From an uncultured Clostridia bacterium (GTDB lineage Bacteria; Bacillota; Clostridia; TANB77; CAG-508): a stretch of 64,000 nt of DNA. Both the position numbers and the translations under genes were made by a program. The notes beneath the pieces are model-generated. The model was not told the origin of the DNA. It saw only the letters and a list, made by a program, of their open reading frames with translations, and ran no database searches. Shown piece by piece: positions 47,925 to 49,046 of this stretch. The stretch spans positions 20,499-84,498 of the forward strand of contig CANRHX010000001.1 in NCBI GenBank assembly GCA_947630545.1. The letters run 5' to 3'. How positions within the stretch are numbered: position 1 is the first letter of the stretch; every line of letters starts with the position of its first letter.

Positions 47925-48485
47925 TTATTCTAGTCATACATAACTTTACGAGGGTGGGGCTAAAAATCCACTAAAGGGCACATCGAAGAAGTTTCTTAGT
48001 GTTGCGCGAAATGCCAGTTTTGTGTGACCCTAGGGAGTAAAGAAATAAGGGTAGTATGTAATGGCATATATATGATTCCCTCATTTCGCGGAGGCTTGAA
48101 ATTATTTTTAAGTTAAACCTATGCTGAGTGCCAAGACACAATATGCATAGTGTAGCCTGTCTCGAGTGAGTATGTTGGGATTAATTCATTAGCATTAGTG
48201 TTAATTTTGGCCAAAATAAATACTAATAGGAATTATGAAATTATACTTGCAAAAAAGACTAGTAAAGTTTAAGAGTATGTCAAGGAAAACTTCTAGAATG
48301 TTTGCAAAGTTATTTGCAAGAAAGTCTAGGGATTAAGGTACGGATTTAAGTGGCGATCTGGTGTTTACCTTTTTGGGTAAATATCTCCCATAATCGGAAA
48401 CGGCTATAGCAGCAATGCTAAGCGGGAGGTAGAGAAATTCAACTAGACCTAAACCGTAAAATTTACTTAGACTTTTACCATCTTA
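47925..48485 (+). ncRNA. candidate large structured ncRNA (OLE/ROOL size class, about 560 nt)
   Basis: The intergenic region is clearly GC-enriched relative to its AT-rich flanks. There are no ORFs. It has long-range complementary segments (cgcgaaatg/catttcgcg, gaggg/ccctc, ccctaggg). It lies immediately upstream of a 4-TM membrane protein. Confidence 0.4.
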
Positions 48486-48503
48486 AAGTTGAAAAGGAGA
48501 AAA

Positions 48504-49046
48504 ATGAAAAAAGAACACTCGAACAAAATATGGTTTATAAAAGTTTTTTTACTTACTTTTATACTTTCTATTATATTTTCATATATATCTACAAATGGAG
48601 TAGCGGGATTAAGTTTAGTACCTGCAATTTTAATTTTAATATTAGTAATATTAACAGGTATAATTTTTGATATAATAGGAGTTGCAGTAACAGTTGCAGA
48701 TGAACATGAATTTCATGCAAAAGCAACTAAAAAAGTAGAAGGTTCAAAAAGCTCCATAAAATTAATACGAAATGCACCTAGAGTTGCAAATATTTGTGCT
48801 GATGTAATCGGAGATATTTGTGGAGTATTAAGTGGAGCAATAAGTGCATTAATTTCAGTAAAAATAACCGAACAATTTGGATTATCATTTAGTTTACAAT
48901 TTATATTAAGTGCAACAGTTGCAGCATTAACAGTAGGAGGAAAGGCAATTGGAAAAGATATAGCAAATAATAACTCAACTAAAATTGTGCATGCTGTTGG
49001 AATTTTCTTAAGTAAATTTCAAAGAAAAGGGAGGAAAGTCAAATGA
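48504..49046 (+). CDS. small 4-TM membrane protein (OapA-like?)
   Basis: About 180 aa with four predicted TM helices. There is an intramembrane D-x-x-x-D ('ICADVIGDICGV'). The RBS is AAAGGAG. It is in an operon with the WG-repeat protein. Confidence 0.55.
   Translation: MKKEHSNKIWFIKVFLLTFILSIIFSYISTNGVAGLSLVPAILILILVILTGIIFDIIGVAVTVADEHEFHAKATKKVEGSKSSIKLIRNAPRVANICADVIGDICGVLSGAISALISVKITEQFGLSFSLQFILSATVAALTVGGKAIGKDIANNNSTKIVHAVGIFLSKFQRKGRKVK

What the first reader, a model, noticed from the sequence alone, without database searches (positions are those of the whole stretch)
47925..49046. About 560-nt GC-enriched, ORF-free intergenic region followed by a 4-TM protein: candidate large structured ncRNA (OLE-like or ROOL-like)
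Between the dTMP-kinase-like gene and the membrane-protein gene lies a non-coding stretch visibly richer in G+C than the AT-rich flanks. It has several long-range complementary segments: cgcgaaatg...catttcgcg about 75 nt apart, gaggg/ccctc, and an 18-nt direct repeat (tgcaaaaaagactag / tgcaagaaagtctag). Size and composition fit the large 'ornate' ncRNA classes of anaerobic Firmicutes. OLE RNA is characteristically followed by oapA, which encodes a small 4-TM protein. The downstream gene here is an approximately 180-aa 4-TM protein with an intramembrane D-x-x-x-D. The flanking genes are not the ispA/dxs neighbourhood usually reported for OLE, so the identity is uncertain.
Basis: partly seen in the sequence, partly recalled or inferred. 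Interest (0 to 1): 0.7.

Follow-up and report, generated by a model that had tools for sequence, protein, structure and literature searches.

The report
OLE RNA gene with oapA

Summary
Window 47901-48497 (+) matches Rfam OLE (RF01071) end to end: 362.9 bits against a gathering score of 50, E 5e-103. No other Rfam family matches. In the window sequence 137 of the 147 model base pairs are canonical. In a structure-blind alignment with 70 related loci the fold is 90% paired, against 33-49% for slid controls, and 64 pairs show compensatory changes.

The downstream 180-aa protein is OapA. It is 45% identical to Clostridium acetobutylicum OapA, carries DVIGD in a hydrophobic segment, has four hydrophobic helices, and gives a sub-threshold CNNM match as published for OapA.

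Local details:
- A conserved sigma-70-type promoter sits directly upstream of the RNA.
- oapA starts 21 nt after the RNA's closing helix, with no terminator between them.
- The distal part of P5 is missing.
- The P13 tip lacks the GNRA tetraloop and bulge that bind OapB. This fits the published "variant 1" OLE of uncultured gut Clostridia.

The usual ispA/dxs neighbours are absent. A P-loop nucleotide-kinase-like gene sits upstream in 61 of 70 relatives.

Verdict: a real feature of an already known family, of low interest.

The parts
47881..47909 (+). Sigma-70-type promoter-like site: TTGCGA, 17 nt, TATAAT, with TG before the -10 hexamer. It overlaps the last codons and the stop of the Tmk-like gene. 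The predicted start is about 7 nt downstream, at the first OLE helix.
   Evidence: 10 of 12 matches, TG extension. In one search, anchoring 70 relatives on GATGGTGCA shows conserved TTGGAA/TTGTCA, 17 nt, TATAAT, 7 nt, then the RNA. Function is inferred, not shown.
47901..48497 (+). OLE RNA gene: full extent of the Rfam RF01071 match, model positions 1-616 of 616.
   Evidence: 362.9 bits, gathering score 50, E 5e-103, not truncated. In one search, 137 of 147 model pairs are canonical.
47916..47921 (+). 5' strand of the closing helix (P1), GAUGGU. It pairs with ACCAUC at 48477-48482. This helix is not annotated in the Rfam model.
   Evidence: helix 1: 100% paired in 71 sequences. Four sequences carry a G-C to A-U double change.
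47953..47972 (+). P2 hairpin (GGUGGG / UCCACU) with the invariant CUAAAAAU loop.
   Evidence: Invariant in all 71 sequences (helix 2).
47992..48037 (+). P3/P3.1 long hairpin. In published models of the OLE dimer this stem is proposed to span the membrane.
   Evidence: helix 3: 20 pairs, 6 with compensatory changes, 94% paired. The membrane-spanning proposal is from PMC12265935.
48042..48087 (+). P4/P4a hairpin with loop AAUGGCAU (48060-48067). L4 is reported to make the A-A dimer bridge.
   Evidence: helices 4-5. In one search the loop is AAUGGCAU in 61 of 71 sequences. The dimer bridge is from PMC12286853.
48088..48112 (+). J4a/5 (GCGGAGG, the conserved strand reported to form the OapC kink turn), followed by a minimal P5 hairpin. 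The distal P5.1 part is absent: model positions 206-234 are replaced by 3 nt.
   Evidence: alignment. In one search the P5 hairpin is 16-74 nt in relatives and 18 nt here. The kink-turn location is from PMC9723947 and PMC12286853.
48119..48150 (+). P6 hairpin. The outer 5 bp are intact. The inner helix is only partly paired, both here and in all relatives.
   Evidence: helices 7-8 (helix 8 is 62% paired).
48159..48259 (+). Long four-segment hairpin. My mapping to published names is P7, P8, P9 and the P9.x segments. The palindromic GGCC sits in the terminal loop (48209-48212).
   Evidence: helices 9-12: 21 pairs with compensatory changes. In one search, GGCC is present in 70 of 70 relatives that keep the tip. 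The stem names are inferred from text descriptions only.
48320..48476 (+). 3' domain, made of nested helices:
- 48320-48330 with 48466-48476;
- 48339-48343 with 48454-48458;
- P12.2, 48357-48362 with 48442-48447.
These enclose P13 (48364-48381; no GNRA loop and no conserved bulge) and P14/P14.1 (48382-48431; GCAA tetraloop at 48412-48415).
   Evidence: helices 15-21. In one search the P13 tip is hypervariable, while the P14.1 loop is GUAA in 68 sequences and GCAA in 3. The OapB site definition is from PMC7936274.
48477..48482 (+). 3' strand of the closing helix (P1), ACCAUC.
   Evidence: helix 1.
48504..49046 (+). oapA: a 180-aa membrane protein. GGAG lies at 48495-48498, 5 nt before the ATG. 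The stop overlaps the next gene's start (ATGA).
   Evidence: -: 45% identity over 161 aa, E 1e-33, to C. acetobutylicum OapA.
- four hydrophobic segments, DVIGD at 100-104, and a K/R cluster at 73-93.
- CNNM at 22.7 bits, below the 28.4 cut-off.
- identical 180-aa protein P0001.
47138..47908 (+). Upstream neighbour: a divergent thymidylate-kinase-like P-loop protein of 256 aa. Its link to the OLE system is uncertain.
   Evidence: Pfam Thymidylate_kin at 67 bits; NCBIfam dTMP kinase models score below their cut-offs; the same gene lies upstream of ole in 32-42 relatives.
49043..50569 (+). Downstream neighbour: a WG-repeat protein of 508 aa. Its start overlaps the oapA stop, so it is probably on the same transcript. 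It is not conserved beyond the closest relatives.
   Evidence: PF14903, 118 bits; present only in the same-strain loci and L006.

Best explanation
Window 47901-48497 encodes an OLE (ornate, large, extremophilic) RNA, and 48504-49046 encodes its membrane partner OapA.

Shown here:
- The sequence and fold are those of the OLE family.
- The fold is maintained by compensatory changes across at least 70 related species.
- The partner protein is an OapA orthologue.

Inferred from the sequence:
- The RNA is transcribed from its own sigma-70-type promoter at 47881-47909, about 7 nt before the closing helix.
- Transcription continues into oapA, and probably into the WG-repeat gene. No terminator intervenes and oapA begins 21 nt after the RNA.
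- OLE is therefore made as the 5' part of the oapA transcript, or is processed from it.

Inferred from published work on Halalkalibacterium halodurans and Clostridium species:
- The RNA dimerises. L4 and a self-complementary GGCC loop are conserved here.
- It is anchored at the membrane by OapA, a relative of the CNNM domain of Mg2+ transporters.
- The particle helps the cell tolerate stresses such as alcohols, cold, excess Mg2+ and poor carbon sources.
- Its biochemical activity is not known for any member.

This copy belongs to a trimmed form. It lacks P5.1 and the P13 GNRA-plus-bulge site for OapB. That matches the 'variant 1' OLE described for uncultured gut Clostridia.
For: -: RF01071 match over model positions 1-616, 362.9 bits against a gathering score of 50, E 5e-103. 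It is the only Rfam match in the window.
- 137 of 147 model pairs are canonical.
- a homologous RNA lies upstream of oapA in essentially every related locus that has upstream sequence.
-, on a MAFFT alignment made without structure: 90.1% of cells paired against 33-49% for slid partners; 64 pairs with changes on both sides against 22-33; covariation score 0.181 against 0.04-0.075; 0 of 500 shuffles reach the observed values.
- 11 of 11 sampled relatives match RF01071 at 321-365 bits.
- OapA identity, DxxxD motif, four hydrophobic helices, sub-threshold CNNM match, and an invariant DVIGD in 18 homologues.
- conserved -35 and -10 elements at a fixed distance from the RNA, and no terminator-like site in 47600-49300.
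- conserved L4, GGCC loop and P14.1 GNRA loop; variable P13 tip and variable P5.
- Published background: PMC12265935, PMC11332333, PMC12286853, PMC7936274, PMC9723947.
Against: - No expression data exist for this organism. The promoter, the transcript ends and co-transcription with oapA are inferred only.
- The genes usually clustered with ole (ispA, dxs and others) are not within six genes on either side.
- The inner P6 helix and some distal pairs of the long hairpin are poorly paired (helices 8 and 12).
- The 'variant 1' label rests on weak points. It uses the Rfam bit score, whereas the published thresholds were set with a different model. It also uses the missing P13 site. The long hairpin is not shorter than the Rfam consensus, although variant 1 is described as having shorter P7-P9.
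- The lineage (TANB77-like) is recalled from memory and was not tested.
- Physiological function is extrapolated from distant species.
Confidence: 0.95

Rival explanations
1. The region is mainly a cis-acting 5' leader (a riboswitch-like or attenuator element) that controls oapA expression, rather than a functional RNA in its own right.
For: oapA starts 21 nt after the RNA's closing helix, with its ribosome-binding site right at the end of the Rfam match, and no terminator lies between them. A conserved promoter sits directly upstream of the RNA.
Against: - The RNA is a full OLE. Published work shows OLE is a stable, abundant RNA that binds OapA, OapB and OapC and forms a dimer (PMC12265935, PMC12286853).
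- In many relatives the gap between OLE and oapA is 100-400 nt, so tight coupling to the start codon is not conserved.
- No expression platform such as a terminator or an anti-RBS helix is visible.
Confidence: 0.04
2. The region is a decayed protein-coding gene, or a chance G+C-rich spacer with accidental complementarity.
For: A 56-aa antisense ORF lies at 47971-48141.
Against: - E 5e-103 to a covariance model.
- 64 base pairs change on both sides while keeping pairing across 71 sequences.
- Long invariant single-stranded blocks are conserved in 70 species, which does not fit a pseudogene.
Confidence: 0.005
3. It is another class of large ornate RNA (ROOL, GOLLD, HEARO or raiA) rather than OLE.
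For: The size and host type are compatible.
Against: cmscan against all 4227 Rfam families gives only OLE, both at gathering thresholds over the whole window and at E up to 1 over 47700-48700.
Confidence: 0.005

Closest known systems
OLE RNA, Rfam RF01071 (studied in Halalkalibacterium halodurans, Clostridium acetobutylicum and C. botulinum)
   Same: - End-to-end match to the family model.
- The same conserved blocks: CUAAAAAUCC, AAAGGGCACAUCG, AAUGGCAU, GUAGCCUG, GGAAAAC, GGAUUAAGGU, GGAAAC, GACCUAA, AAAAUUUAC.
- The same order of helices.
- oapA immediately downstream.
- Host is an anaerobic member of the Bacillota.
   Different: - P5.1 is missing.
- The P13 tip lacks the GNRA tetraloop and single-nucleotide bulge that form the main OapB site.
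- It is very A+U-rich, with many G-U pairs in P3.1.
- It has its own promoter, rather than sitting inside the long polycistronic operon described for H. halodurans.
- The ispA/dxs-type neighbours are absent.
'Variant 1' OLE RNAs of uncultured gut Clostridia (TANB77 clade), Fernando and Breaker 2024, PMC11332333
   Same: - The hosts are metagenome-assembled gut Clostridia.
- Bit scores of 321-365 for this clade fall in the published 310-390 band.
- The nucleotides of the OapB site at the end of P13 are missing.
   Different: - The published band was set with a different covariance model.
- Variant 1 is described as having shorter P7, P8 and P9, but the long hairpin here is as long as the Rfam consensus.
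- The GTDB placement of this organism was not tested.
OapA (OLE-associated protein A)
   Same: - 45% identity to C. acetobutylicum OapA.
- DxxxD motif (DVIGD).
- Four hydrophobic helices.
- A basic cluster between helices 2 and 3.
- A sub-threshold match to Pfam CNNM.
- Position directly after ole.
   Different: Nothing notable. It is slightly shorter (180 against 194 aa). RNA binding was not tested.
MpfA / CorB / CNNM Mg2+ transporters
   Same: Weak similarity of the membrane domain (PF01595, 22.7 bits, E 8.6e-5). This matches what is published for OapA (PMC11332333, section 9).
   Different: - Below the Pfam cut-off.
- No CBS or CorC domains.
- Has the DxxxD motif that CNNM domains lack.

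Membership tests
OLE RNA (Rfam RF01071) | Match to the family covariance model above the curated gathering score | tested here: met
   362.9 bits against 50, E 5e-103, model positions 1-616 of 616, not truncated.
OLE RNA (Rfam RF01071) | An RNA of about 600 nt with many conserved helices supported by covariation | tested here: met
   137 of 147 pairs canonical; 90.1% paired in 71 sequences and 64 pairs with compensatory changes. Slid-partner and shuffle controls are far lower.
OLE RNA (Rfam RF01071) | Blocks of near-invariant unpaired nucleotides | tested here: met
   The alignment to the consensus and the list of invariant columns show them. Examples are CUAAAAAUCCACUAAAGGGCACAUCG, AAUGGCAU, GUAGCCUG, GGAAAACUUCUAG and GACCUAAAC.
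OLE RNA (Rfam RF01071) | oapA as the immediate downstream gene | tested here: met
   oapA starts at 48504, and the ole-oapA pair is present in all related loci that have upstream sequence.
OLE RNA (Rfam RF01071) | Host is an anaerobic or extremophilic member of the Bacillota | tested here: met
   all 80 related loci come from records titled Clostridia, Clostridium or Eubacteriales MAGs.
OLE RNA (Rfam RF01071) | Typical gene cluster (ispA, dxs and other housekeeping genes). This is a frequent feature, not a defining one. | tested here: not met
   none of these genes lies within six genes on either side. The neighbours are a Tmk-like gene, four giant surface proteins, a WG-repeat protein, acpS and tatD.
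OLE RNA (Rfam RF01071) | Stable abundant transcript, membrane localisation and RNP formation | not testable with these tools
   Needs RNA-seq, Northern blots, imaging or binding assays.
OLE 'variant 1' (PMC11332333) | Infernal bit score of 310-390 with the authors' model | tested here: inconclusive
   The Rfam model gives 362.9 bits here and 321-365 bits in 11 relatives.
OLE 'variant 1' (PMC11332333) | OapB-binding nucleotides at the end of P13 are often missing | tested here: met
   the P13 tip here is CUUUUUGG. It is hypervariable (3-14 nt) in 71 sequences, with no conserved GNRA loop or bulge.
OLE 'variant 1' (PMC11332333) | Shorter P7, P8 and P9 stems | tested here: inconclusive
   the long hairpin (model positions 286-383) is 101 nt here against 98 in the Rfam consensus. 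My assignment of stem names comes from text only. The full-length consensus of the paper was not available.
OapA | Significant sequence similarity to a recognised OapA | tested here: met
   45% identity over 161 aa, E 1e-33, to the C. acetobutylicum OapA sequence printed in the supplement of PMC12286853.
OapA | DxxxD motif, four predicted transmembrane helices and a conserved basic cluster | tested here: met
   - DVIGD at 100-104; hydrophobic segments near 11-29, 38-60, 97-119 and 126-144; K/R at 73, 76, 77, 82, 86, 89 and 93.
- D100 and D104 are invariant in 18 homologues.
- four long helices, in a low-confidence model.
OapA | CNNM-like fold (closest solved structure is CorB) | tested here: inconclusive
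   Only a sub-threshold Pfam CNNM match. The AlphaFold model had mean pLDDT 55.1, so no fold search was run.
ROOL, GOLLD, HEARO, raiA | Match to the family covariance model | tested here: not met
   no match at gathering thresholds in the window, or at E up to 1 in 47700-48700.

The most novel reading that the evidence does not exclude
In this clade of uncultured gut Clostridia the OLE system may be a pared-down, self-contained module.

- It has its own promoter.
- The OLE RNA lacks P5.1 and the main OapB site.
- oapA sits on the same transcript.
- The gene just upstream on the same strand is a P-loop nucleotide-kinase-like gene in 61 of 70 relatives. These genes fall into three groups that do not cluster together by BLASTP: Tmk-like, an unclassified 191-aa P-loop protein, and Gmk-like.

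Such replacement of one kinase type by another at the same position would hint at a functional link between the OLE particle and nucleotide phosphorylation. No paper in the searchable library mentions such a link.
Probability: 0.12. Interest if true: 0.45.

Novelty: already known. Interest (0 to 1): 0.2.

Why it matters
OLE is one of the largest and best conserved bacterial RNAs whose biochemical activity is still unknown. Recent cryo-EM work suggests it may span the membrane as a dimer. This locus adds nothing new about the class itself: the existing Rfam model finds it at once, and published surveys already list thousands of OLE genes, including trimmed variants in gut Clostridia.

Its modest value is as a compact natural example. 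It shows which parts are dispensable (P5.1 and the P13 OapB site). It also shows which parts are kept even in a very A+T-rich small genome (L4, the GGCC loop, the kink-turn strand, the P14.1 GNRA loop, and OapA with its DxxxD motif). A conserved promoter also defines the likely 5' end.

Tried and rejected
Seven of nine positions stay complementary only because both strands are invariant. There are no compensatory changes and the outer two pairs fail. It competes with P3.1 and P4, which do covary, so I rejected it as a helix of the fold.\n- The gaggg/ccctc pairing was rejected. The two segments belong to P2 and P4a in the model.\n- An AlphaFold2 model of OapA from 18 close homologues gave mean pLDDT 55.1. 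That is too poor for a fold search, so none was run.\n- tblastn of C. acetobutylicum OapC and RpsU against the window found nothing. A 64-kb window cannot show that these genes are absent from the genome.\n- Two paper look-ups failed because search terms must have at least three characters.\n- A taxonomy look-up of Clostridium sp. CAG:440 failed. The TANB77 placement therefore remains a recollection.\n- A literature search for OLE RNA together with thymidylate kinase returned nothing.\n- The mSphere supplement holds no table of OLE hits by genome.\n- No separate covariance model was built, because the Rfam model already settles the question.

Full report
**Observation**

The stretch between the thymidylate-kinase-like gene (47138-47908) and the small membrane-protein gene (48504-49046) has no ORF of 60 aa or more on either strand. 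It is richer in G+C than its surroundings: 36.7% for 47916-48482 against 27.7% for the window. Only 0.16% of windows of the same length reach that value. The direct repeat is 15 nt with two mismatches, not 18 nt. The downstream protein is 180 aa from the ATG at 48504, with GGAG 5 nt upstream. It has four hydrophobic segments and DVIGD at residues 100-104 within the third. The observation therefore stands.

**Identity of the RNA**

A scan of the whole window against all 4227 Rfam families at curated thresholds gives one match. It is OLE (RF01071) at 47901-48497 on the + strand: 362.9 bits against a gathering score of 50, E 5e-103, covering model positions 1-616 of 616 without truncation. A more permissive scan of 47700-48700 at E up to 1 finds nothing else. 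ROOL, GOLLD, HEARO and raiA are therefore excluded.

Projecting the model's structure onto the window sequence, 137 of 147 base pairs are canonical. The only large departure from the consensus is in the P5 hairpin, where 29 model positions (206-234, the distal P5.1 part) are replaced by 3 nt.

**Comparative support**

The OapA protein was used to fetch 80 loci from one-genome-per-species bacterial assemblies. All are uncultured Clostridia, Clostridium or Eubacteriales MAGs, mostly from gut samples. Five more contigs carry the identical protein. nhmmer finds a homologue of the RNA just upstream of oapA, on the same strand, in essentially every locus that has upstream sequence. Eleven of eleven sampled loci match RF01071 at 321-365 bits.

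I aligned the window RNA with 70 distinct full-length relatives using MAFFT, without any structural input. I then counted the Rfam structure, plus a closing helix that Rfam does not annotate (GAUGGU 47916-47921 with ACCAUC 48477-48482), on that alignment.

| Measure | Observed | Partners slid by 1-3 columns |
|---|---|---|
| Cells forming a standard pair | 90.1% | 33-49% |
| Pairs with changes on both sides | 64 of 153 | 22-33 |
| Covariation score | 0.181 | 0.04-0.075 |

None of 500 shuffles reaches any observed value. The closing helix is 100% paired, with a G-C to A-U double change in four species. The weak spots are the inner helix of P6 (62% paired, the same mismatches in all sequences) and parts of the distal long hairpin.

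- The pair cgcgaaatg (48005-48013) and catttcgcg (48082-48090) stays complementary at seven of nine positions across the clade. That is only because both strands are invariant. There is no compensatory change and the two outer pairs fail in most sequences. In the model these strands belong to P3.1 and to P4 plus J4a/5, and both of those helices do covary.
- GAGGG and CCCUC belong to P2 and P4a.
- The two halves of the direct repeat are the 3' strand of the long hairpin and the 5' strand of the outer helix of the 3' domain.

**The protein**

- The 180-aa protein is 45% identical over 161 residues (E 1e-33) to the C. acetobutylicum OapA sequence printed in the supplement of the cryo-EM paper. 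The match includes CxDVIGDIxG.
- D100 and D104 are invariant in 18 homologues.
- It has four hydrophobic helices and a basic cluster (K73 to R93) between helices 2 and 3.
- It gives a sub-threshold Pfam CNNM match: 22.7 bits against a cut-off of 28.4. This is the pattern published for OapA, which is described as the next-best group after MpfA in CNNM searches and as distinguished by DxxxD (PMC11332333, section 9).
- An AlphaFold2 model from close homologues shows four long helices but has mean pLDDT 55. I did not run a fold search on it.

**Expression (inferred)**

A promoter-like site lies at 47881-47909: TTGCGA, 17 nt, TATAAT, with a TG extension. It overlaps the end of the Tmk-like ORF. When 70 relatives are anchored on the first helix, the same arrangement is conserved: TTGGAA or TTGTCA, 17 nt, TATAAT, 7 nt, then GAUGGUGCA. 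This predicts a transcription start within a few nucleotides of 47916.

No terminator-like site lies anywhere in 47600-49300. The oapA ribosome-binding site begins about 11 nt after the closing helix, and the oapA stop overlaps the start of the next gene. The simplest reading is one transcript, ole-oapA-WG-repeat gene, from which OLE may or may not be cut out. This differs from H. halodurans, where ole is reported to lie inside a long polycistronic operon (PMC12265935).

**Which kind of OLE**

Fernando and Breaker (PMC11332333, sections 5 and 12) divide OLE RNAs by bit score. Full-length is 390 or more, variant 1 is 310-390, and variant 2 is 235-310. Variant 1 is said to be commonest in the uncultured gut clade TANB77, to have shorter P7-P9, and often to lack the OapB site at the end of P13. 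According to PMC7936274 that site is a GNRA tetraloop plus a single-nucleotide bulge in P13.

- Here the P13 tip is CUUUUUGG. Across 71 sequences it is hypervariable in sequence and length (3-14 nt), with no conserved GNRA loop or bulge.
- The neighbouring P14.1 loop is GUAA or GCAA in all 71 sequences.
- The scores of this clade (321-365 bits) fall in the variant 1 band, but with the Rfam model rather than the authors' model.
- The long hairpin is not shorter than the Rfam consensus.

I therefore regard 'variant 1-like' as likely but not settled. The TANB77 placement is a recollection that I could not test.

Features reported as dimer contacts or protein sites are kept (PMC12286853, PMC9723947):
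- the L4 sequence AAUGGCAU;
- a palindromic GGCC in the terminal loop of the long hairpin, in 70 of 70 relatives that keep the tip;
- the J4a/5 strand CGCGGAG of the kink turn.

**Neighbourhood**

None of the genes typically clustered with ole lies within six genes on either side.
- Upstream are the Tmk-like gene, four giant SpaA/SdrD-like surface proteins (25297-46963), and minC, a PBP and mreBCD.
- Downstream are a WG-repeat protein, a 409-aa protein without family, acpS, tatD, a G5-domain protein, an exonuclease III-like protein, an AI-2E transporter and RNase III.

Across the relatives, the gene immediately upstream of ole on the same strand is a P-loop kinase-like protein in 61 of 70 loci. 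These fall into three groups that do not cluster together: Tmk-like in 32, a 191-aa P-loop protein in 23, and guanylate-kinase-like in 6. A short-chain dehydrogenase follows oapA in 57 of 76 loci. All these genomes belong to one clade, so this may be inherited synteny. I found no mention of such a link in the searchable literature.

**Function**

What OLE does biochemically is unknown for any member. By homology, the most likely role here is the published one. A membrane-anchored OLE-OapA particle, probably an RNA dimer, helps the cell adapt to stresses such as short-chain alcohols, cold, high Mg2+ and poor carbon sources. OapA acts as a CNNM-like divalent-cation transporter or sensor (PMC12265935, PMC10898510). 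Every step of that is extrapolated from H. halodurans and Clostridium species and none is shown here.

**Verdict**

The local peculiarities are of specialist interest only: its own promoter, the missing P5.1 and P13 OapB site, and the kinase-like neighbour.

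Noticed in passing
window 21140-21240, 23360-23490, 35560-35640, 47030-47130, 51880-51950, 52040-52110, 52490-52620, 55380-55510: A dispersed palindromic repeat family with a 34-nt period. The unit is about TTTTGTGTCAnnGGTTCCGGGTTTnnnTGACACA: a 7-bp stem around a 17-18-nt loop that holds the invariant GGTTCCGGGTTT.
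- The core has 17 matches with at most one mismatch, against 0.03 expected. Sixteen lie in these 8 clusters of 1-3 units, on both strands. The seventeenth (53805, one mismatch) lies inside a coding region and is probably chance.
- Most clusters lie between genes. The one at 52490-52620 runs through the acpS ORF end and the tatD ORF start as listed.
- One cluster lies about 800 nt upstream of OLE, before the Tmk-like gene.
- The repeat resembles REP or BOX elements. It has no Rfam match.
- Among the 85 fetched loci, the core occurs only in the same-strain contigs and L068.
   Followed up: partly
loci L006-L085, the gene immediately upstream of ole; window 47138-47908: In 61 of 70 related loci the gene just upstream of ole, on the same strand and about 130-150 nt away, is a P-loop kinase-like protein. 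There are three groups that do not cluster together by BLASTP:
- Tmk-like, 254 aa, in 32 loci;
- an unclassified 191-aa P-loop protein with faint Tmk/dNK similarity, in 23 loci;
- guanylate-kinase-like, 193 aa, in 6 loci.
This is either inherited synteny or replacement of one kinase type by another.
   Followed up: partly
loci L007 and 56 others, about 100 nt downstream of oapA: A 253-aa short-chain dehydrogenase (PF00106, 160 bits) follows oapA on the same strand in 57 of 76 related loci. In the window it is replaced by a WG-repeat protein and a 409-aa protein with no family match.
   Followed up: partly
window 25297-46963: Four consecutive giant ORFs on the + strand (1672, 1748, 1633 and 1951 aa). 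They have SdrD-B, SpaA and Cna-B-type repeats, and the last one has a C-terminal hydrophobic anchor. They look like an array of cell-surface adhesins inserted between minC and the Tmk-like gene. Only the closest relative, L006, has a 33%-identical counterpart.
   Followed up: no
window 52114-52599 and 52538-53398: The acpS ORF end and the tatD ORF start, as listed mechanically, overlap by about 60 nt. The overlap runs through a three-unit copy of the 34-nt repeat. The true gene ends are probably outside the repeat. The repeat also causes spurious 'tatD' tblastn hits in L001 and L003.
   Followed up: no
window 3136-11736: This stretch looks like part of a mobile or defence island. It holds a tyrosine integrase (8932-9882, - strand), an ECF-type sigma factor (6677-7219, - strand), a 639-aa HD-domain protein and a 547-aa HATPase_c_3 protein.
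   Followed up: no
locus L075 5309-5859: One relative's OLE is 551 nt and lacks the whole distal part of the long hairpin, including the GGCC loop. It still scores 325.7 bits on RF01071.
   Followed up: no
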